Positions 1 to 40,562 of a DNA stretch of 40,562 nucleotides are shown here, in pieces. A model generated the notes under the pieces. That model ran no database searches. It was given only the letters and a program-made list of their open reading frames with translations, and was not told the origin of the DNA. The stretch comes from Escherichia phage Zappy, in sequence record OQ870568.1; one strand, given 5' to 3'. The stretch's first letter is position 1; every line of letters begins with the position of its first letter. The translations under genes and the position numbers were made by a program.

Positions 1-77
1 ACTACAGGCTCTGTTTTCTTCTCCCCATTAGAAGTAACAATAGGGTTGCTTCCGAGATATGCAGTTGTGAAACGGTT
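1..77. repeat. Terminal duplication, identical to 40486..40562 (overlap of a circularised contig)
   Basis: Direct comparison of the first 77 and last 77 bases: exact match. Confidence 0.9.
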
Positions 78-2535: not shown

Positions 2536-2558
2536 GTTTCCTATAGTGATAGTTTAGT
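2536..2558 (-). promoter_or_regulatory. Phage RNAP promoter (phi17-like), minus-strand sequence ACTAAACTATCACTATAGGAAAC
   Basis: Matches the 23-bp motif found 11 times in this genome; sits between the gp16 stop and the tail fibre start. Confidence 0.7.
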
Positions 2559-9811: not shown

Positions 9812-9834
9812 AGTCCCTATAGTGATAGTTAAGG
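9812..9834 (-). promoter_or_regulatory. Phage RNAP promoter (phi13-like), CCTTAACTATCACTATAGGGACT
   Basis: Motif match; intergenic between gp12 stop and gp13 start. Confidence 0.7.
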
Positions 9835-12898: not shown

Positions 12899-12940
12899 AA
12901 AAAAAAACCCCTCAAGCACCCGAAGGCACCCAAGGGGTTT
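12899..12940 (-). terminator. Tphi-like terminator for the phage RNAP
   Basis: Minus-strand AAACCCCTTGGGTGCCTTCGGGTGCTTGAGGGG followed by nine T residues; closely resembles the T7 Tphi hairpin; located between capsid and gp11 as in T7. Confidence 0.75.
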
Positions 12941-12943
12941 CAA

Positions 12944-14222: not shown

Positions 14223-14245
14223 TCTCCCTATAGTGATAGTTTAGT
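14223..14245 (-). promoter_or_regulatory. Phage RNAP promoter (phi10-like), ACTAAACTATCACTATAGGGAGA
   Basis: Positions -7 to +6 identical to the T7 consensus; immediately after the scaffold stop and upstream of the capsid gene. Confidence 0.8.
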
Positions 14246-15209: not shown

Positions 15210-15232
15210 AGTTCCTATAGTGATAGTTTAGG
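15210..15232 (-). promoter_or_regulatory. Phage RNAP promoter (phi9-like), CCTAAACTATCACTATAGGAACT
   Basis: Motif match; overlaps the portal stop codon, upstream of the scaffold gene. Confidence 0.7.
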
Positions 15233-17969: not shown

Positions 17970-18030
17970 CTTGAATCTCCTCTTTAAGTTAAGACTAAAG
18001 TCTATCTTATAGTCATATCTTAGGTCCTAA

Positions 18031-18053
18031 AGTCCCTATAGTGATAGTTTAGT
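18031..18053 (-). promoter_or_regulatory. Phage RNAP promoter (phi6.5-like), ACTAAACTATCACTATAGGGACT
   Basis: Motif match; intergenic between exonuclease and the gp6.5-like gene. Confidence 0.75.
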
Positions 18054-20520: not shown

Positions 20521-22692
20521 TCAATGGCATTCTTTCCATGTTGGTCCAATCTTGCCCTCAGTATCAAGTACACACTTGAAGTTATAGAACTCACCCACCT
20601 TACGCATAGCAAGTTGAGCAATCTTGACGACTTCTTCGGCAATCTCCTGAGTACGGCAAGCAATCTGCAATTCGTCGTGAACCCAGGCCATGTACGCGAA
20701 GTCTCCCTCCCAGCCGTGAACATACCCTGACTCTTCAAGCATACGTTCAGTCTCGACAATCCAGTGCTTACAGACTACCGCACCATCGCCTTGAAGTAAG
20801 GCGTTCAGTGCTGAGTGCGGCGACCGGATGTGGATACGGCGACCGTCAAGTCCACGCAGCCAACGGCGTTTCCACTTAACGATGTTCTCTCCGTCCACCC
20901 ACTTAGAGTCTGAGATTAACGTACTACTCACAGCTTCCCTGAGGTCTTTGATGGCTGGTGTACCCTCAATGAATTTCTGCATGAGTGCTGAACCTTCCTT
21001 CTTCCCACCGCCTACTATCAGTCCAATCTTCGCGGCCCCTGCACCATATAGGAACGCATAGATGAACGTCTTAGCGTTGTTACGGAAAGCATCATGGTCG
21101 TGGCTGGACTTATCGCGTGGGACGTTAGGTGCTAACCCAGCGTTTACTGCGTTGGCCCAGTGGATGTCACCTTCGACCACAGTCTTCGCATAGGCACCAC
21201 CATCAAACGGAGCCGCTCGGTTCCCCAGACAACGAAGCTCAAGACCTGAAGCATCCACACCCACTTGAATCCAAGGGTCTGGCTTACCATCCGTCTTGTT
21301 CCAAGCTGCACCGAAAGCACCACGGCAAATCTCACCATACGGAGCACCGTTAGCAGGGACCTGAGCCATGTTTGGTGAACTATGAGTCGCACGTCCGGTT
21401 ACTGCCCCGCATGGGTTGATTGAACCGTGCATCCGTCCGTCTGGACCTACAAGTTTCAACCATGCGTTCTTACCTTCAGCCGCCTGACCGATGCGCTTCT
21501 GGACTACCAGATACTCACGAACTAGCTCTACGCAATCCTGAGCCTCTGCGTCTGGCAACTTAACGTGTTCTAACGTCTCGTCATCGACTACAGGTTTCCC
21601 GGTGTCAGTGAAGTCCACAGGCTCCCAGCCACGCTCCATCAGAACTTTCGCTAAGTGGTCTCCGCTTCCCGGATTAAACTCAACGTAAGTGATTGGCGTG
21701 AAGGGTGCTCCCTCCATCGTGTCTCGCGTATCGCGTTCACAGGGTTCAAGACCTAAGCGTTGAGCTTTGTTCTTCGGCTTCTTAAAGATGCCACCGACCT
21801 TAGGATACACGACTCTCGGATACTTCGGAAGGTCCTTGCCTGTCCGTGGGTGCTTGAAGAACTCCTTGCCTCCCTTTGGTGCGTACCAGCTGCCGAAAGT
21901 CGAACGCAGCTTGTCCAGCAGCTCTGCACGCTTGACGGTGAGTTCACGATATAAGCCTTCGACCATCTCGGTGTTCATCGGATAGCCGTTACGTTCCATC
22001 TTCGCACAGGTCCACGCAGCATCATGTTCCAGACGCAACGCATAAATCTGGTCGAAAGCGAACTGTTCAGACTGGAAGTAATACTTGTCAGTCAGGAACT
22101 TCTTGAACAACGCCAGTGTGACCACAACGTCTTGAACGTTATAGTCCAGCATCTCCTGAGACGGGAACAACCATTCGTCCCCAGCCTTATATTCGATACC
22201 TTCAGCCTTGCATTTGGCAACGTAATCGTGTTTGTACTCACCTTTCATCTCCCCGAGACGATAGCCCCAAGCCTCAAGAGACTGTCGTCCCATCATCTGA
22301 GGTGGCAGACGTCCAGATTTCACCGCTCCCATGTCTGAGAACTTAATGTTGGGATACATCAATCGCCCAAGCACCAAGGTATCAACAATTCGACCCTTAT
22401 TCACATTTAGGTTCTTACCGAAGTATTTCTTCTTCAGTATTTTCAAGGCTGGTATATCATAGTTCACACCATTATGCATAACCAGCATACCGTCAGTGGA
22501 TGTCATAATAGATTCTATGCGGTCTATATATTCTTTGAATCCACCTGTCAGCCCAGTCATAGGGGCAACACCATATTTCTCAGTAGCTTGAGTTCCAGCG
22601 TTAATGATAACACCACAGTGGAACTGTGACACAGTGTCTAGTAGACCGTCAGTCTCTATATCTGTGCCATAGAATGAGTTGAGATTAAACAT
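20521..22692 (-). CDS. 5: DNA polymerase gp5 (family A, with 3'-5' exonuclease), 723 aa
   Basis: ORF track; many T7 gp5-like stretches (NVQDVVVT, GSWYAPKGG, KYPRVVYPKVGGIFKKPKNKAQR, DASGLELRCL, FAYMAWVHDE). Confidence 0.95.
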   Translation of the reverse strand: MFNLNSFYGTDIETDGLLDTVSQFHCGVIINAGTQATEKYGVAPMTGLTGGFKEYIDRIESIMTSTDGMLVMHNGVNYDIPALKILKKKYFGKNLNVNKGRIVDTLVLGRLMYPNIKFSDMGAVKSGRLPPQMMGRQSLEAWGYRLGEMKGEYKHDYVAKCKAEGIEYKAGDEWLFPSQEMLDYNVQDVVVTLALFKKFLTDKYYFQSEQFAFDQIYALRLEHDAAWTCAKMERNGYPMNTEMVEGLYRELTVKRAELLDKLRSTFGSWYAPKGGKEFFKHPRTGKDLPKYPRVVYPKVGGIFKKPKNKAQRLGLEPCERDTRDTMEGAPFTPITYVEFNPGSGDHLAKVLMERGWEPVDFTDTGKPVVDDETLEHVKLPDAEAQDCVELVREYLVVQKRIGQAAEGKNAWLKLVGPDGRMHGSINPCGAVTGRATHSSPNMAQVPANGAPYGEICRGAFGAAWNKTDGKPDPWIQVGVDASGLELRCLGNRAAPFDGGAYAKTVVEGDIHWANAVNAGLAPNVPRDKSSHDHDAFRNNAKTFIYAFLYGAGAAKIGLIVGGGKKEGSALMQKFIEGTPAIKDLREAVSSTLISDSKWVDGENIVKWKRRWLRGLDGRRIHIRSPHSALNALLQGDGAVVCKHWIVETERMLEESGYVHGWEGDFAYMAWVHDELQIACRTQEIAEEVVKIAQLAMRKVGEFYNFKCVLDTEGKIGPTWKECH

Positions 22693-25301: not shown

Positions 25302-25324
25302 CATCCCTAAGGTGATAGTTTAGG
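25302..25324 (-). promoter_or_regulatory. Variant phage promoter, CCTAAACTATCACCTTAGGGATG (two mismatches at -4/-3)
   Basis: Motif match except -4 and -3; upstream of the small ORF and gp4. Confidence 0.45.
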
Positions 25325-27541: not shown

Positions 27542-27564
27542 ATGTCCTACAGTGATAGTTTAGG
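27542..27564 (-). promoter_or_regulatory. Phage RNAP promoter (phi2.5-like), CCTAAACTATCACTGTAGGACAT (one mismatch at -3)
   Basis: Motif match; overlaps the gp2 stop, upstream of the SSB gene. Confidence 0.6.
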
Positions 27565-28517: not shown

Positions 28518-28540
28518 TTGTCCTATAGTGATAGCTTAGG
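28518..28540 (-). promoter_or_regulatory. Phage RNAP promoter (phi1.5/1.6-like), CCTAAGCTATCACTATAGGACAA
   Basis: Motif match with one change at -12. Confidence 0.65.
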
Positions 28541-28573: not shown

Positions 28574-28614
28574 CACAAAGCAAAGAAACCCAGCAGTCCT
28601 AAGACCGCTGGGTT
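28574..28614 (-). terminator. Rho-independent terminator, TE-like (early terminator for host RNAP)
   Basis: Minus-strand AACCCAGCGGTCTTAGGACTGCTGGGTT (8-bp GC-rich stem plus inner pairs) followed by TCTTTGCTTTG; directly after the HNH gene that follows ligase. T7 TE lies after gene 1.3. Confidence 0.5.
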
Positions 28615-30584: not shown

Positions 30585-30607
30585 TAATCCTATAGTGATA
30601 GTTTAGG
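30585..30607 (-). promoter_or_regulatory. Phage RNAP promoter (phi1.1-like), CCTAAACTATCACTATAGGATTA
   Basis: Motif match; first promoter downstream of the RNAP gene, as for T7 phi1.1A. Confidence 0.75.
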
Positions 30608-30900: not shown

Positions 30901-33582
30901 TTAAGCGAATGCAAAGTCTGAAGACAAGATGTCTTCGATATTCAGTTTACCTTTCTTCGGAAGCTCAGGCAACTTATCGCGCTGGCTCTCGTGAAGCTGG
31001 TATTCAAACTGCTCGTAGAAGTCAAGCAGCACATCGTTGTCGCGGTAGGTCTCGACCATCGTCTCACGGACGCCACGGAACAGATACTCAGCGTCAGCCG
31101 GGATGGTCCCGAAGCTATCGTGAATCACTGCGAATGACATCACGCCATACTTGCGGTGCGTGTGGACTACAGTCTTGCGTAGGTGGCTACCATCTTGTGA
31201 GTGGACGAAGTTCGGGCTAATGCCTGACTCCTGCTTGTGCTTGTCCAGCTCTTTCTTAGTACCTTTGTTGACTGTAGGCTGAAGGTTAAATGACCCTAAG
31301 AACATCAGGTTCAAACGTGTGGTATCCTTCTTGCGGTATTCCTGCCAGACCGGGAAACCATCAGGTGTTACCCAGTGTACAGGAAGGCAAGGCTTCAGGA
31401 TTTCACCAGTCTTCTTGTCCTTCACTTCAGCAGCCAGCAACTTGGCAGCGCCTTGAAGCCACTTCATCGCGTCAACCGCAGCAACTACTGTCACACTCAC
31501 AGCTTCCCAAATCATCTTAGCCATGAAGCGAGACGCTTGGCTCGGCTCGGTGAACATAGCGCCAGACCCTGAGTCAATCGCTGGCATCACGATGTCCTCG
31601 TAAACTTGGTCTGCGAAGCCGTACTCTTTCGACCCGTATGCCAGAGTCATGACTGAACGCTTAGTGACCTTGCGTGACATCCCGTAGGTCAGCCACTGAC
31701 GGGCCAGCTCTCGTGTCCCCAGCTTGATACGTTCGGTAATCTCACCAGTTTTCTTGTCCTCGTGAGTGACCATCTCGTTGTCAGTACCGTTAATCAGCAG
31801 GACTTTAAGCTCCTCATCAATGCGGTCAGACACGATGCGGTAGATGTCTTGGACCTTACCGGATGGCGTCAGATTTACTGCATGTCCACCAATGTGGTCA
31901 CGAAGCATCGCGCTGAAGTGCTGAATACCAGAGCAGGACCCATCGAACGCTATCGGCAGTGAGCAGGAGTAAGACAATCCGTGGTGCATTACACCAGCAT
32001 ACTCGAAGCAGAACGCAAGGAAGCAGAACGGAGAGTCTAACTTGCCCCACCACTCAATACTATCCATCGGTGCCTTAGCAGCAGCCATGATGTTTTCGTG
32101 GTTGTCTTCCACCCACTTGATGCGCTCCTCGAAGGTGACTTTATCAACACCCGCGCAGTTTGCACCATGGACCTTCAGCCATTTGAAACCGTCAGCACCA
32201 ATAGGCTTACCGACTGCCAGAGTCAGGAGACCCTTCTGCATGTCGTTACCCTGAGGGTTGAACATCGGCACAGCGTAGACTCGACCGCGCCAGTCCATGT
32301 TGTATGGAAACCAGATGGCCTTGAACTGAGAGAACTTATTCGCTTGGTTGACGATAAAGCTCAGTGATAATCTGCGTGACTGTCGGGCCTTCTCGCGGCG
32401 ATAGATACCAGCAGCAGCCTTCTTCCATGCCTTGAGTTCCTCCTCGGTCTCACCCGCATAGTCCTCAGGCTTCAGTGGTTCCATCTGAGGGATGTCATCG
32501 ATAGGCGTGTTGTTCAACTTCTCGACCATGTTCACCACGTCCAATACCTTCTTGTTTACTTTCCAAGGTGTATTTTGAATGATGTTCACAGCGTCATAGA
32601 CTTCAGGCATGTACACGTCTTCATAACGTGCTACCGCAGACTTAGACCCTAAGCGAATCAATGGTAACGGTCTGCGACCTTTGGCCCAGTACCCACCGCC
32701 TACTACACCAGTCCACGGCTTAGGTGGAACGACGCAAGGCTGGTAGACTGGAGCGATACCCGCAAGGCTGAATCCTCGTTGTGCCATCTTCTTGACCCAG
32801 AAGTCTGACAGGTGGACCATCTCAACGTCAGCCGCCGCATTGCCAGCACCATAACGCTTAAGCTCGACCAGTTGTGTGGACTGGATGACAATCTCTAGCA
32901 TCTTGATGCCAACGTGTACCGCTTCGGTCGGACTCCAAGTACCCCACGCATCTTCCAGTTGACCTTGCTCCAGCATGGAGGTCTCAACTGCTTGCATGTA
33001 GGCTTTCTTGTAGGATGCCCCGGACCGCTTATTCAGGTTATCAGCTATCGCCTTCTTGAAATGCTCTTTCTCCTTGTCACGGATGCGACCGAATCGGATT
33101 TCATCCTCAAGTGTGCGACCTATCGCGGAGGCCATTGGTGTAATCGGTATCCCTTCAGGCTTTACCAGCTTGGAGAGGATGACCTTCAGTATGATAACCG
33201 CAGCAGACTCACAGGAGATGCGCATCGAGCGGTCTTTAACGCCCTTCTCTTCAGTGCTCAACATGGTGAACGCTACGCTAGGACGTGAGGTTGACAGCTT
33301 CCCGTCTTGTCCTTCATGCCACTCCTTGACGGCTTGCGCAATCTTAGGTACCAGAGTCTGCATCAAAGGCTTGGCGACCTGATTGTCTGCCAGTTCCCCG
33401 CGCTCGGTCTGGCGCTCAAGGTTCTTGATGAAACGTCGCTCACCTTCTGTGTATGCCTCATGCTCAAGCTGAAGCTGTTTGACTGCAAGGTCTTGCCCGT
33501 AGTGGTCGGCCAGCAGGTTAAACGGCTCAATGGCGTTCGACACATCAGAGAAGTCGTGTTTGTCAATAGAGATGACGCTCAT
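30901..33582 (-). CDS. 1: Single-subunit DNA-directed RNA polymerase gp1, 893 aa
   Basis: ORF track; long near-identical stretches to T7 RNAP (PFCFLAFCFEYAGV, FDGSCSGIQHFSAMLRD, AIWFPYNMDWRGRVYAV, SFGTIPADA, C-terminal FAFA). Confidence 0.97.
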   Translation of the reverse strand: MSVISIDKHDFSDVSNAIEPFNLLADHYGQDLAVKQLQLEHEAYTEGERRFIKNLERQTERGELADNQVAKPLMQTLVPKIAQAVKEWHEGQDGKLSTSRPSVAFTMLSTEEKGVKDRSMRISCESAAVIILKVILSKLVKPEGIPITPMASAIGRTLEDEIRFGRIRDKEKEHFKKAIADNLNKRSGASYKKAYMQAVETSMLEQGQLEDAWGTWSPTEAVHVGIKMLEIVIQSTQLVELKRYGAGNAAADVEMVHLSDFWVKKMAQRGFSLAGIAPVYQPCVVPPKPWTGVVGGGYWAKGRRPLPLIRLGSKSAVARYEDVYMPEVYDAVNIIQNTPWKVNKKVLDVVNMVEKLNNTPIDDIPQMEPLKPEDYAGETEEELKAWKKAAAGIYRREKARQSRRLSLSFIVNQANKFSQFKAIWFPYNMDWRGRVYAVPMFNPQGNDMQKGLLTLAVGKPIGADGFKWLKVHGANCAGVDKVTFEERIKWVEDNHENIMAAAKAPMDSIEWWGKLDSPFCFLAFCFEYAGVMHHGLSYSCSLPIAFDGSCSGIQHFSAMLRDHIGGHAVNLTPSGKVQDIYRIVSDRIDEELKVLLINGTDNEMVTHEDKKTGEITERIKLGTRELARQWLTYGMSRKVTKRSVMTLAYGSKEYGFADQVYEDIVMPAIDSGSGAMFTEPSQASRFMAKMIWEAVSVTVVAAVDAMKWLQGAAKLLAAEVKDKKTGEILKPCLPVHWVTPDGFPVWQEYRKKDTTRLNLMFLGSFNLQPTVNKGTKKELDKHKQESGISPNFVHSQDGSHLRKTVVHTHRKYGVMSFAVIHDSFGTIPADAEYLFRGVRETMVETYRDNDVLLDFYEQFEYQLHESQRDKLPELPKKGKLNIEDILSSDFAFA

Positions 33583-33651: not shown

Positions 33652-33674
33652 GAGTCCTATAGTGATAGTTAAGT
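33652..33674 (-). promoter_or_regulatory. Phage RNAP promoter located 75 bp upstream of the RNAP gene itself, ACTTAACTATCACTATAGGACTC
   Basis: Motif match; lies between the stop of the 86-aa early ORF (33680) and the RNAP ATG (33582). Confidence 0.7.
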
Positions 33675-36153: not shown

Positions 36154-36176
36154 CATCCCTATAGTGATAGTTAAGT
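36154..36176 (-). promoter_or_regulatory. Phage RNAP promoter (phiOR-like), ACTTAACTATCACTATAGGGATG
   Basis: Motif match; last promoter before the probable right genome end. Confidence 0.7.
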
Positions 36177-36189
36177 TAACCTATTGAAT

Positions 36190-36732
36190 TTACTTGTGGT
36201 TTCTCTTGGCCCTATCACGCTTAGGGGACCGTAGGGAAACAGCGTACTCCTTGTGCTTCTCTTCACGTAGTGCTGTCAGCCATGCTTCAAGTTCTATCAC
36301 AGAGTCGGAAGTCTTTGTGTAGCACTTACCCTTAAGTCGCAACTGAGCGCGATACTTTCCGGTAGGCTTGAAGAAGCTGATACCCTTAGGGAGACCATTA
36401 GTCTCGCCACCTCCTGAGTTCCATCTGTTCTCCAATGCTGTTACTAACCTGTAGTTATCCGGCCTGTCATCAAGCCTATCACCATTGATATGGTCAACCA
36501 TCATGCCAGAAGGTATTCGACCAACGGCTAGGCTGTAGATGATTCTGGCACGTCTATAGCGACTACCAAGGACCTTCACGATTGCGTACCCAGACGGATG
36601 GACTGAATGTCCCATGACCTCGCCTGGCTTCTTGTTAGAGCCTTTATAGGACTTCTTGCACACCAACTCACCATCTACATAAGCATAGTGATTAAAGAGG
36701 GCCACCCTGTCGATGGCCTTCTGTTTACTCAT
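36190..36732 (-). CDS. HNH homing endonuclease (HNH-B), 180 aa, immediately downstream of the large terminase gene
   Basis: ORF track; GRIPSGMMVDHINGDRLDDRPDNYRLVT HNH motif; RBS AGGAGG. Confidence 0.8.
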   Translation of the reverse strand: MSKQKAIDRVALFNHYAYVDGELVCKKSYKGSNKKPGEVMGHSVHPSGYAIVKVLGSRYRRARIIYSLAVGRIPSGMMVDHINGDRLDDRPDNYRLVTALENRWNSGGGETNGLPKGISFFKPTGKYRAQLRLKGKCYTKTSDSVIELEAWLTALREEKHKEYAVSLRSPKRDRAKRNHK

Positions 36733-38512: not shown

Positions 38513-38945
38513 AGAGTCCCTCCAGCATTAGGTCCCGGACAGAGATAGCCTCCTCTAAAGTAGGACGTGTTGTTCGAATACGGACTCCCTTACGCATGAC
38601 CTCGATAGCGTAGCCATTCTGATGGAACGATATGTTCTTAACTCCAGTCTTTGAGTCAGAATGTCCTGAGGTGTTGCAGGAGTTCTCGCTGGAAGTAACT
38701 AGCCGGAGGTTGTCCAGCCTGTTGTTAGTCCGGCAGCGGTCGATATGGTCAATCTCCATCCCTTCTGGTATAGGACCGTGGATTAGCTCCCAGACGACTC
38801 TATGGGCCAGCAGGAGTCCATGACGTCGAGTTCCTACCTGATAATACCCGTGGTTTCCCACACACCCCACATCCTTACCAGAACGCAGGGACTTCAGGCC
38901 AGACTTACTGGACTCATCATAGACATACGAATCACTGAGCATCAT
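38505..38945 (-). CDS. HNH homing endonuclease (HNH-C), 146 aa, immediately upstream of the large terminase gene
   Basis: ORF track; [25 protein letters not shown] nearly identical in its core to HNH-A; start overlaps the gp18.5 stop as ATGA, stop overlaps the gp19 start. Confidence 0.8.
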
Positions 38946-39385
38946 TTCTCCTTATCTTGCTGCAAGGCTCTCACAGTGTCCTGAAGAGCCTTAATCCACT
39001 TGTCTCCTTTCACTCCTATGGCGATAAGACGTTTAGCATCTCGTTCGTCAAGTTCGGCGTAACCATCAATGACGCATCGACCGTCACTTTGCGTGGTTCC
39101 ACTCGTTGGCTTGACTCGGATGCGCAGCCGCTTATTGTCAGACTGAAGGTCAGCAATAATCCTATCAGTGCTGCCTTCCAGCGAGGACATTTCGTCCTGA
39201 AACCGTTTGGACACTTTGTTGACTTCAGCTTGGACAGCAAGCCTTGTATCTTCCGATGCCTTAAGATTCGAGGTGTATTCTTCATTGACCTTAGCCTCCC
39301 ACTTATTGTTAGCGGTGTGGTAGCCACCAGCAAACATCACTGCTGCAAGTAACCACGGAGCCGCTCTCTTTAAAAATTCGAGCAT
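38942..39385 (-). CDS. 18.5: Rz-like i-spanin gp18.5, 147 aa
   Basis: ORF track; MLEFLKR, EGSTDRIIADLQSDNKRLRIRVK, DERDAKRLIA, WIKALQDTVRALQ resemble T7 gp18.5. Confidence 0.8.
   Translation of the reverse strand: MLEFLKRAAPWLLAAVMFAGGYHTANNKWEAKVNEEYTSNLKASEDTRLAVQAEVNKVSKRFQDEMSSLEGSTDRIIADLQSDNKRLRIRVKPTSGTTQSDGRCVIDGYAELDERDAKRLIAIGVKGDKWIKALQDTVRALQQDKEK
39016..39285 (-). CDS. 18.7: Rz1-like o-spanin gp18.7, embedded in the +1 frame of gp18.5 (~89 aa from the internal ATG)
   Basis: ORF track 39016..39333 (TTG-initiated); PRWKAALIGLLLTFSLTISGCASE lipobox and C-terminal SLMVTPNLTNEMLNV resemble T7 gp18.7. Confidence 0.6.
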   Translation of the reverse strand: MKNTPRILRHRKIQGLLSKLKSTKCPNGFRTKCPRWKAALIGLLLTFSLTISGCASESSQRVEPRKVTVDASLMVTPNLTNEMLNVLSP

Positions 39386-40052: not shown

Positions 40053-40562
40053 TTACTTCTGTTCAAGAGCAGAAAGTCTGGCTTCGATTCTTTCCAGTTT
40101 TCTTCTCTGATAGGCGGCTTCAGCAAAGAAAATTCCGTCAGGCCGAACACCCCACTCCTCACCCCCTTCATGGATAACCACCTCAGTGAATACAGGTTCT
40201 TCCGTAGTAGTGACATTACCCTCCTCGTCAGTGTGTTCAATGATTTCATTGTGCGAAAATACCGTATCGGTCATCCGTGGATACTTGTCATAGCACAGAA
40301 CGGCATAACGACAATTCGTACTGTTTTCATCCATCAGACCGTGTGCAATGAATACATCACGAATTTGCTGAGCAATAACCCCGAAGTGAATACGAGCATC
40401 ATTGCCTTTCAGCTGAACAGCATCTAACCATTGATACATGATGTAGTGAACGTCACCCCAGGCATCTAGGAAAGCATCATCAAAAACTACAGGCTCTGTT
40501 TTCTTCTCCCCATTAGAAGTAACAATAGGGTTGCTTCCGAGATATGCAGTTGTGAAACGGTT
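40053..40562 (-). CDS. 17: Tail fibre/tailspike gp17, C-terminal part (same gene as 1..2489; 40486..40562 duplicates 1..77)
   Basis: ORF track 40053..40439; frame stays open upstream to the window end and is the same frame as the ORF at the window start; ends in a predicted coiled-coil (RRKLERIEARLSALEQK). Confidence 0.8.
   Translation of the reverse strand, partial: NRFTTAYLGSNPIVTSNGEKKTEPVVFDDAFLDAWGDVHYIMYQWLDAVQLKGNDARIHFGVIAQQIRDVFIAHGLMDENSTNCRYAVLCYDKYPRMTDTVFSHNEIIEHTDEEGNVTTTEEPVFTEVVIHEGGEEWGVRPDGIFFAEAAYQRRKLERIEARLSALEQK
40486..40562. repeat. Terminal duplication, identical to 1..77
   Basis: Exact match to the window start. Confidence 0.9.

What the first reader, a model, noticed from the sequence alone, without database searches (positions are those of the whole stretch)
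14223..14245. Eleven copies of a promoter identical to T7 at -7..+6 but different at -12..-9
Sites at 2536, 9812, 14223, 15210, 18031, 25302, 27542, 28518, 30585, 33652 and 36154 share the minus-strand consensus (A/C)CT(A/T)AACTATCACTATAGG. Positions -12 to -9 read ACTA, whereas T7 has CGAC and T3 has ACCC as I recall them. These are the bases read by the polymerase specificity loop, so this polymerase likely has its own promoter specificity. Three copies (25302, 27542, 28518) carry one or two changes and may be weaker.
Basis: partly seen in the sequence, partly recalled or inferred. Interest (0 to 1): 0.55.

Follow-up and report, generated by a model that had tools for sequence, protein, structure and literature searches.

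The report
Known K1F-type phage RNA polymerase promoters
The eleven repeats are real promoters for this phage's own T7-like RNA polymerase, but they are the standard, already published and experimentally used promoter of phage K1F and its genus (Kayfunavirus), so the finding is correct but ordinary.

Summary
There are exactly 11 minus-strand sites matching MCTWAACTATCACTATAGG, against 0.04 expected by chance. A PWM scan shows a clean gap (11 sites score at least 30.6 bits, the next scores 14.3).

The window is a reverse-complemented, circularly permuted Kayfunavirus (K1F-like) genome. Its RNA polymerase is 99% identical to K1F gp1 and has an identical specificity loop (T7 numbering N748, S754, N756, Q758, V761). 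K1F and PE3-1 carry the same 11 sites in the same gene positions, with essentially the same three degenerate variants. Ro45lw carries 12.

The pairing of the K1F loop with ACTAT at -12..-8 was shown to be orthogonal to T7 in 2012. The native Ro45lw polymerase (94% identical) initiates in vitro at the G of ACTTAACTATCACTATAGGGA. GenBank records annotate these sites as phi1.6, phi2.5, phi6.5, phi9, phi17 and so on.

Its own refutation criterion for novelty, an already documented promoter of a characterised relative, is also met.

Two corrections. Only -16..+2 is conserved in the family, and GGGAGA at +1..+6 occurs only in the phi10-like copy. The promoter also differs from T7 at -17..-14.

The three weaker copies sit at class II (DNA-metabolism) positions, and their deviations are conserved across species.

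The parts
36154..36176 (-). Promoter (-17..+6), phiOR-like. It lies downstream of terminase/HNH ORF and reads toward the genome end and early region. ACTTAACTATCACTATAGGGATG
   Evidence: The orthologous site in K1F is at 38852 and in PE3-1 at 39066.
33652..33674 (-). Promoter with +1 75 nt upstream of the RNAP start codon. ACTTAACTATCACTATAGGACTC
   Evidence: It is conserved in K1F (2474), PE3-1 (2874) and Ro45lw (2400, 1 change).
30901..33582 (-). Single-subunit T7-like RNA polymerase gene (893 aa), the enzyme predicted to read the 11 promoters
   Evidence: It aligns end to end with T7 RNAP structures at E=0. It is 99% identical to K1F gp1 and 94% identical to Ro45lw RNAP.
31243..31338 (-). 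Segment encoding the specificity loop (T7 residues 739-770): YRKKDTTRLNLMFLGSFNLQPTVNKGTKKELD. In T7 numbering: R746, N748, S754, N756, Q758, V761.
   Evidence: It is identical in K1F.
30585..30607 (-). Promoter, phi1.1-like, downstream of the RNAP/1.05-like ORF and ahead of the gene 1.2 homologue and ligase. CCTAAACTATCACTATAGGATTA
28518..28540 (-). Promoter, phi1.5/1.6-like, variant (-12 G), 30 nt before the gene 1.6 ATG and just after a TE-like hairpin. CCTAAGCTATCACTATAGGACAA
   Evidence: The same variant occurs in K1F, PE3-1 and Ro45lw, where it is annotated phi1.6.
27542..27564 (-). Promoter, phi2.5, variant (-3 G), overlapping the end of gene 2. CCTAAACTATCACTGTAGGACAT
   Evidence: The same variant occurs in K1F, PE3-1 and Ro45lw, where it is annotated phi2.5.
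25302..25324 (-). Promoter ahead of the primase/helicase gene 4 (phi3.8/4-like), variant (-4 C, -3 T). CCTAAACTATCACCTTAGGGATG
   Evidence: The same CACCTTAGG variant occurs in K1F and PE3-1.
18031..18053 (-). Promoter phi6.5. ACTAAACTATCACTATAGGGACT
   Evidence: It is annotated phi6.5 in PE3-1 and Ro45lw.
15210..15232 (-). Promoter phi9, overlapping the gene 8 stop codon. CCTAAACTATCACTATAGGAACT
   Evidence: It is annotated phi9 in PE3-1.
14223..14245 (-). Promoter phi10, the cited copy, 110 nt before the major capsid gene. It is the only copy with GGGAGA at +1..+6. ACTAAACTATCACTATAGGGAGA
12904..12941 (-). T-phi-like terminator after the capsid gene: a 17-bp stem followed by a T run
   Evidence: The fold gives -25.2 kcal/mol, z = -3.5. 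The equivalent position is annotated as a terminator in PE3-1 and Ro45lw.
9812..9834 (-). Promoter phi13. CCTTAACTATCACTATAGGGACT
2536..2558 (-). Promoter phi17, overlapping the gene 16 stop codon, ahead of the endosialidase tail gene. ACTAAACTATCACTATAGGAAAC
   Evidence: It is annotated phi17 in Ro45lw.

Best explanation
The eleven 19-23 bp repeats are the promoters for this phage's own single-subunit RNA polymerase. The phage is a K1F-like member of the T7 group (genus Kayfunavirus). After host RNA polymerase makes the early transcript that includes gene 1, the phage polymerase binds each promoter. By analogy with the T7 RNAP-promoter crystal structure, the beta-hairpin specificity loop reads the major groove at about -12..-7, where this family has ACTATC in place of T7's CGACTC. 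An N-terminal loop reads -17..-13. The TATA segment is melted and transcription starts at the G of TATA|GG. The loop carries S754, N756 and V761 (T7 numbering) in place of Q, R and I. The R756N change matches the change at -9, from the G:C pair that R756 contacts in T7 to an A:T pair. Eight consensus copies drive the structural and late genes (phi6.5, 9, 10, 13, 17), the region after gene 1, the RNAP gene itself and a phiOR-like site. Three slightly off-consensus copies sit before DNA-metabolism genes (1.6, 2.5, 4) and are probably weaker, like T7 class II promoters. Shown here: the sites, their non-random occurrence, their strand and gene positions, the loop sequence, and one-to-one orthology with K1F, PE3-1 and Ro45lw. 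Shown in the literature for relatives: initiation at +1 G by the Ro45lw RNAP, and orthogonality of the K1F loop with the ACTAT promoter versus T7. Inferred: activity and relative strength of each copy in this particular phage.
For: There are 11 sites against 0.04 expected, all on the coding strand. The PWM scan shows a gap from 30.6 to 14.3 bits. Every site lies in an intergenic gap or on the last codons of the upstream gene, 30-250 nt ahead of a T7-group gene. A full-length T7-like RNAP is encoded in the window. It is 99% identical to K1F gp1 with an identical loop. K1F and PE3-1 each have the same 11 sites in the same order. The three variant copies are the same in all three phages, apart from one extra -16 change at phi2.5 in PE3-1 and a -17 difference at the gene-4 site. 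Ro45lw has 12 sites. Promoter cores are 396/399 identical to K1F/PE3-1 while the +/-40 nt flanks are 85% identical in an ungapped comparison. The published literature agrees: the T7 RNAP variant 754S/756N/761V is cognate to ACTAT at -12..-8. The T7(K1F) chimera was active on its predicted promoter and orthogonal to T7, T3 and N4. Purified Ro45lw RNAP has the minimal promoter ACTTAACTATCACTATAGGGA and starts at G. CTWAACTATCACTATAGG repeats are interpreted as promoters in Kayfunavirus Sparklingdew. GenBank records annotate the orthologous sites as phi1.6, phi2.5, phi6.5, phi9 and phi17. A T-phi-like terminator follows gene 10.
Against: No transcription data exist for this particular phage, so the strengths of individual copies are inferred. 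The grafted K1F loop in T7 RNAP gave only moderate activity, and a later paper rated the orthogonality of that set as limited (minimum ratio 8). The loop/-12..-8 pair is therefore not the whole story, since -17..-13 and the N-terminal domain also differ. The PE3-1 record labels the copy in front of gene 1 as a 'host RNAP promoter', although its sequence is the phage consensus.
Confidence: 0.95

Rival explanations
1. The sites are phage promoters, but the sequence difference from T7 does not give a functionally distinct specificity. T7-type polymerases and this polymerase would cross-recognise each other's promoters to a useful degree.
For: The -8..+2 segment is identical to T7. A 2025 paper rates the orthogonality of the grafted T7/T3/K1F/N4 set as limited, with a minimum ratio of 8. 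The JBC 2025 paper attributes variable background signal to T7 RNAP cross-reactivity with some tested promoters.
Against: Four consecutive bases at -12..-9 and three or four at -17..-14 differ from T7. The key contact residue R756 is replaced by N. Temme et al. report that each RNAP/promoter pair is highly orthogonal. No site in the window lies within 6 mismatches of the T7 23-mer.
Confidence: 0.04
2. The repeats are not polymerase promoters. They would instead be another kind of dispersed signal, such as host sigma-70 promoters (as one is labelled in the PE3-1 record), recombination sites or packaging sites.
For: PE3-1 annotates the gene-1 copy as a 'host RNAP promoter'. A consensus scan finds weak sigma-70-like matches (9/12) overlapping three sites on the opposite strand.
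Against: Those sigma-70-like hits are on the non-coding strand, and the total count is below the shuffle expectation (12 found against 16.4). The motif carries the T7-group core CACTATAGG. It always sits on the coding strand at the positions of T7 phi promoters. It is transcribed by a congeneric RNAP in vitro.
Confidence: 0.01
3. This particular phage has a promoter specificity that differs from that of K1F, making it a new specificity class.
For: The RNAP differs from K1F gp1 at 12 of 893 residues.
Against: None of the 12 differences lies in the specificity loop, and residues 721-893 are identical. The 11 promoter cores are 19/19 identical to K1F at 10 sites and 18/19 at one.
Confidence: 0.01

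Closest known systems
Phage K1F (Kayfunavirus K1F) promoters and gp1 RNA polymerase
   Same: Both have 11 sites in the same order and at the same gene positions. The sequences are the same, including the three degenerate variants. The RNAP is 99% identical with an identical specificity loop, and both have an endosialidase tail gene.
   Different: The -17 base differs at the gene-4 promoter (C here, A in K1F). Genome-wide identity is about 92-96% to the nearest records. This phage has extra or alternative small ORFs, for example an HNH ORF after the terminase gene, and lacks an interrupted DNA polymerase gene.
Escherichia phage Ro45lw RNAP and its in vitro mapped promoter (Takatsuki et al., J Biol Chem 2025)
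   Same: It belongs to the same genus. Its RNAP is 94% identical and has the same R746/N748/S754/N756/Q758/V761. Its minimal promoter ACTTAACTATCACTATAGGGA is identical over -17..+2 to the window sites at 33656 and 36158 and matches the consensus of the rest. The +1 base is G.
   Different: Ro45lw has L at T7 position 750 where the window has M. It has 12 genomic sites, with an extra one before the DNA polymerase gene. Its gene-1 copy reads TAAAGG.
Engineered T7(K1F) polymerase / PK1F promoter pair (Temme et al., NAR 2012; Segall-Shapiro et al., 2014)
   Same: It uses the same loop substitutions (754S, 756N, 761V) and the same -12..-8 ACTAT.
   Different: The engineered promoter keeps T7's -17..-13 TAATA and +1..+6 GGGAGA in a T7 RNAP scaffold. 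The native sites have MCTWA upstream and variable +3..+6. The native enzyme also differs from T7 around the N-terminal AT-rich recognition loop, including an 11-residue insertion.
Phage T7 class II / class III promoters
   Same: The architecture is the same: a 23-bp element with the CACTATAGG core, start at G, and positions phi1.1, 1.5/1.6, 2.5, 3.8/4, 6.5, 9, 10, 13, 17 and OR. Late promoters are consensus and DNA-metabolism promoters are off-consensus. T-phi follows gene 10.
   Different: The -12..-9 bases are ACTA rather than CGAC, and -17..-14 are MCTW rather than TAAT. There are 11 sites, against the 17 I recall for T7 (one search covers only its first 8 kb, which holds 6). There is no phiOL-type copy near the left end, and there is an extra copy directly upstream of gene 1.

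Membership tests
T7-group (Studiervirinae) single-subunit RNAP promoters | A conserved element of about 23 bp (-17..+6) with the core CACTATAGG and G at +1, repeated about 10-17 times per genome | tested here: met
   There are 11 copies, with -16..+2 essentially invariant. The information content is about 28 bits.
T7-group (Studiervirinae) single-subunit RNAP promoters | All copies are on the coding strand, in intergenic gaps or on gene 3' ends, ahead of the gene blocks 1.1-1.3, 1.5-1.6, 2.5, 4, 6.5, 9, 10, 13 and 17 and near the right end | tested here: met
   The sites were mapped by tblastn of K1F proteins onto the window and by the ORF list. The T7 reference annotation was used for comparison.
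T7-group (Studiervirinae) single-subunit RNAP promoters | A cognate T7-like single-subunit RNAP is encoded in the same genome | tested here: met
   The 893-aa ORF aligns over its full length with T7 RNAP structures at E=0.
T7-group (Studiervirinae) single-subunit RNAP promoters | Transcription actually initiates at +1 G by the phage RNAP | not testable with these tools
   This is shown only for a congeneric enzyme, Ro45lw RNAP, in vitro.
K1F-type (Kayfunavirus) promoter/RNAP specificity subfamily | Promoter bases -12..-8 are ACTAT | tested here: met
   This holds in 10 of 11 copies, and one reads GCTAT. The literature gives ACTAT for the K1F loop.
K1F-type (Kayfunavirus) promoter/RNAP specificity subfamily | The specificity loop has N748, S754, N756, Q758 and V761 (T7 numbering) | tested here: met
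   The loop reads TRLNLMFLGSFNLQPTVN. It is identical to K1F and matches 754S/756N/761V.
K1F-type (Kayfunavirus) promoter/RNAP specificity subfamily | Promoter sites are positionally orthologous to those of K1F | tested here: met
   The correspondence is 11 to 11, in the same order and with the same variants.
K1F-type (Kayfunavirus) promoter/RNAP specificity subfamily | Genome-wide nucleotide similarity to Kayfunavirus genomes | tested here: met
   Identity is 92-96% over 76-93% of a 20-kb query to the 30 best-matching records, which are mostly Kayfunavirus/K1F-like coliphages. The RNAP region is 95-97% identical to the 60 best records listed.
K1F-type (Kayfunavirus) promoter/RNAP specificity subfamily | Functional discrimination against T7 and T3 promoters | not testable with these tools
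   This has been published for the K1F loop grafted into T7 RNAP but was not tested for this enzyme.
T7 (Teseptimavirus) promoter specificity | -12..-9 is CGAC, with R756 in the loop | tested here: not met
   The window has ACTA and N756. The closest site to the T7 23-mer has 7 mismatches.
T3 (Teetrevirus) promoter specificity | -12..-9 is ACCC with CACTAAAGG, and D748 in the loop | tested here: not met
   The window has ACTA, TATAGG and N748. The closest site to the T3 23-mer has 5 mismatches. D748 is taken from the T3 variant listed.

The most novel reading that the evidence does not exclude
The copy at 33652..33674 puts a consensus phage-polymerase promoter 75 nt upstream of the polymerase's own start codon. 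It is conserved in K1F, PE3-1 and, with one change, Ro45lw. The T7 and T3 reference annotations show only the E. coli C promoter (plus, in T3, an RNase III site) there. If this copy is functional, Kayfunaviruses would run a natural 'autogene': positive feedback on RNAP synthesis that is independent of host RNA polymerase once the first enzyme is made. I could not find this discussed in the papers I was able to read. It may be described in the K1F genome paper, which was not available to me.
Probability: 0.25. Interest if true: 0.3.

Novelty: already known. Interest (0 to 1): 0.08.

Why it matters
It matters little as a discovery. The consensus, the polymerase loop that reads it and its orthogonality to T7 are published and already used as a synthetic-biology part (the PK1F / T7(K1F) pair). 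The native enzyme of a sister species has been characterised in vitro.

The result is useful for annotation. It identifies the window as a K1-capsule-specific Kayfunavirus, places all 11 phage promoters and the T-phi terminator, and shows that the three off-consensus promoters are conserved variants rather than decay.

Tried and rejected
- **Extra sites:** A looser 14-mer search with 3 mismatches and a PWM scan of both strands found no further credible sites. The only additional hits were 1593 (3 mismatches, inside gene 17, with 3.55 expected by chance) and a degenerate copy at 18007.
- **Other phage consensus sequences:** I searched for T7, T3, SP6 and K11 consensus 23-mers. Nothing was closer than 5-7 mismatches.
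- **Host promoters:** A sigma-70 promoter scan found fewer hits than in shuffles, and those overlapping the sites are on the wrong strand. I rejected the host-promoter reading.
- **Gene 1 leader:** I folded the 75-nt leader between the gene-1 promoter and the ATG to look for an RNase III-type hairpin as in T3 (R1). It is no better than shuffles (z = 0.28).
- **Papers not available:** I tried to read the K1F genome paper (Scholl and Merril 2005), Chen and Schneider 2005 and the Temme supplement. None is held.
- **Literature on the gene-1 promoter:** A search for discussion of a phage promoter upstream of gene 1 gave nothing relevant.

Full report
**1. Checking the observation**

The cited site on the minus strand reads ACTAAACTATCACTATAGGGAGA at 14245..14223. 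Shuffles predict 0.04 matches.

Eight copies are perfect. 28522 has -12 A>G, 27546 has -3 A>G, and 25306 has -4 T>C plus -3 A>T.

A position weight matrix built from the 23-mers scores the 11 sites at 30.6-37.2 bits and the next best position in either strand at 14.3. A relaxed 14-mer search adds only one chance-level hit. Eleven is therefore the complete set.

Column counts over -30..+20 show that conservation runs from -16 to +2, with M at -17 and W at -14. Position +3 is G or A, and +4..+6 vary. The title's 'identical to T7 at -7..+6' is true only for the cited phi10-like copy. For the family as a whole, identity with T7 spans -8..+2.

I checked the T7 and T3 comparison against the reference records rather than from memory. 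T7 promoters read TAATACGACTCACTATAG and T3 promoters read (A/T)TTAACCCTCACTAA. So -12..-9 is CGAC in T7, ACCC in T3 and ACTA here.

**2. What the window is**

Megablast of half the window finds more than 1000 phage records. The best is Escherichia phage SR04, at 96.4% identity over 93% of the query. It is followed by vB_EcoP_F, several records named 'Kayfunavirus' and many K1- or E. coli-infecting podoviruses at about 92-94%.

A tblastn of K1F proteins maps the whole T7-type gene order onto the minus strand. In order, these are 0.3, 0.6, RNAP, ligase, 1.6, 2, 2.5, 3, 3.5, 4, 5.5-6, 6.5-8, 9, 10, 11-16, the K1F endosialidase gene 17, holin, 18, 18.5 and terminase. Gene 5 was left out of the query set, but a 723-aa uninterrupted ORF lies at 20521..22692.

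The window is thus a reverse-complemented, circularly permuted Kayfunavirus genome, broken inside gene 17. Its last 77 nt repeat its first 77 nt, which looks like an assembly artefact.

**3. The polymerase**

The ORF at 30901..33582(-) aligns end to end with T7 RNAP crystal-structure sequences. In the specificity loop (T7 739-770) it reads YRKKDTTRLNLMFLGSFNLQPTVNKGTKKELD.

In T7 numbering, R746, N748 and Q758 are retained. The changes within the grafted stretch 744-761 are Q744T, Q754S, R756N and I761V.

The enzyme is 99% identical (881/893) to K1F gp1, with no difference anywhere in residues 721-893. It is 94% identical to the Ro45lw RNAP, whose loop differs only by M750L.

Relative to T7 there are also two single-residue insertions and an 11-residue insertion at and just after the N-terminal AT-rich recognition loop region. 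That part of T7 RNAP contacts -17..-13 (established knowledge from the T7 RNAP-promoter structure), and the promoters differ from T7 there too.

**4. The sites in relatives**

The K1F reference genome contains 11 matches to the same pattern, in the same order and in the same gene contexts. It has the same three variants: CCTAAGCTATCACTATAGG before 1.6, CCTAAACTATCACTGTAGG before 2.5 and (A)CTAAACTATCACCTTAGG before gene 4.

PE3-1 also has 11 matches. Ro45lw has 12, the extra one lying before the DNA polymerase gene.

Anchored on the promoters, the 19-bp cores are 396/399 identical between the window and K1F or PE3-1. The +/-40 nt flanks are 85% identical in an ungapped comparison, and several flanks are unalignable. 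The cores, including their off-consensus bases, are therefore maintained while the surroundings change.

The exact 18-mer CTWAACTATCACTATAGG occurs in 95 stretches of IMG/VR. These belong to at least 23 contigs, 20 of which are 39-40.5 kb genomes.

**5. What is already documented**

- **Temme et al. 2012:** They grouped phage RNAPs by beta-hairpin sequence and predicted promoters with PHIRE. They found that each hairpin subfamily shares one promoter binding region. They then grafted the K1F hairpin (Q744-I761) into T7 RNAP and replaced -12..-7 of the T7 promoter with the subfamily consensus. T7(K1F) gave 17-fold induction and the set was reported as orthogonal.
- **A 2025 NAR paper:** It tabulates that variant as 754S/756N/761V with the cognate promoter ACTAT at -12..-8. 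It names R746, N748, R756 and Q758 as the hydrogen-bonding residues, and 748/756/758 as the key covarying positions.
- **A 2025 JBC paper:** It purified the native Ro45lw RNAP, mapped +1 to G by 5'-end sequencing, and trimmed the promoter to ACTTAACTATCACTATAGGGA. Ro45lw is a Kayfunavirus species.
- **A 2026 genome paper:** It describes eight CTWAACTATCACTATAGG repeats in Kayfunavirus Sparklingdew as promoters.
- **GenBank records:** The PE3-1 and Ro45lw records annotate the orthologous 23-mers as phi1.6, phi2.5, phi6.5, phi9, phi(10) and phi17, with a terminator after gene 10.

**6. Mechanism**

The sites map as follows:
- 36159: phiOR-like, after the terminase and HNH ORFs.
- 33657: 75 nt before the RNAP ATG.
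- 30590: phi1.1-like, before the gene 1.2 homologue and ligase.
- 28523: 30 nt before gene 1.6, just after a TE-like hairpin.
- 27547: on the last codons of gene 2, before gene 2.5.
- 25307: before gene 4.
- 18036: phi6.5.
- 15215: phi9.
- 14228: phi10.
- 9817: phi13.
- 2541: phi17.

A 17-bp-stem terminator followed by a T run sits after the capsid gene.

This is the T7 programme: host RNAP first makes gene 1 mRNA, and the phage RNAP then fires at these promoters. The three off-consensus copies are all in the DNA-metabolism (class II) block. Two of them change the TATA melting segment (-4/-3), which in T7 affects initiation rather than binding (established knowledge). That fits with tuned, weaker promoters. 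This point is an inference and has not been measured.

The R756N substitution fits the -9 change from C:G to A:T, since in T7 R756 contacts the -9 guanine on the template strand (established knowledge; residue list).

**7. Verdict**

Novelty: already known. Interest: low.

The one feature I could not find discussed is the consensus phage promoter directly upstream of gene 1. T7 and T3 lack it according to their reference annotations. PE3-1 labels it a host promoter. I record it as a side observation.

Noticed in passing
window 33652..33674 (-), with the RNAP ATG at 33582: A consensus phage-RNAP promoter lies 75 nt upstream of the RNAP gene itself. It is conserved 19/19 in K1F and PE3-1 and 18/19 in Ro45lw (TATAGG>TAAAGG). 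The T7 and T3 reference annotations show only the E. coli C promoter there (plus, in T3, an RNase III site), and PE3-1's record calls it a 'host RNAP promoter'. It suggests natural positive feedback on RNAP synthesis. The 75-nt leader is not significantly structured (z = 0.28).
   Followed up: partly
window 1..77 and 40486..40562: The last 77 nt of the window are identical to the first 77 nt. This looks like a circularised-assembly overlap, for example a k-mer of 77, rather than biology. The non-redundant length is about 40,485 bp. The break falls inside the endosialidase tail gene (gene 17), so the window is permuted relative to the physical genome ends.
   Followed up: partly
window 17990..18024 (-), +1 equivalent at 18007: A degenerate promoter-like copy, CCTAAGATATGACTATAAGATAG, lies 29 nt downstream of the phi6.5 start. 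It is the best non-promoter PWM score (14.3 bits against at least 30.6). It may be a decayed tandem promoter or may be chance.
   Followed up: no
window 36190..36732 (-): A 180-aa HNH endonuclease ORF (Pfam HNH_3, E = 1.6e-14) lies directly after the terminase large subunit gene. It is absent from K1F, but an ORF of the same size is annotated as an HNH endonuclease at the same place in PE3-1 and Ro45lw. It is probably a mobile homing-type gene. The phiOR-like promoter sits 14 nt after the end of this ORF (stop codon included).
   Followed up: partly
window 33200..33300 (-), RNAP residues about 95-125: Relative to T7 RNAP, the enzyme has two single-residue insertions and an 11-residue insertion (…LSTEEKGVKDRSMR…) at and just after the region aligning with the T7 AT-rich recognition loop. 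This coincides with the promoter's -17..-14 being MCTW instead of TAAT. It could be a second specificity determinant that was not transferred in the published loop grafts.
   Followed up: no
window 28587..28614 (-) and 12904..12941 (-): Two terminator-like hairpins were found. One is a 12-bp stem with a T-rich tail after the ligase gene, at the position of T7's TE, immediately before the phi1.6-like promoter. The other is a 17-bp stem with a T9 run after the capsid gene, at the T-phi position (-25.2 kcal/mol, z = -3.5).
   Followed up: partly
loci L040, L067 and L077 (IMG/VR contigs of 72.9, 29.3 and 29.1 kb): The exact 18-mer promoter consensus also occurs once or twice in three IMG/VR contigs whose lengths do not fit a 39-40 kb Kayfunavirus genome. 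I did not examine them. They may be fragments, chimeric bins or other phages.
   Followed up: no
rows H40 (MT350292.1) and H51 (PV615262.1): Records named 'Enterococcus phage EFA-1' and 'Acinetobacter phage vB_Aba_01KA' match the window's RNAP region at about 95% identity over its full length. Those host assignments look doubtful for what is a coliphage-type Kayfunavirus genome.
   Followed up: no
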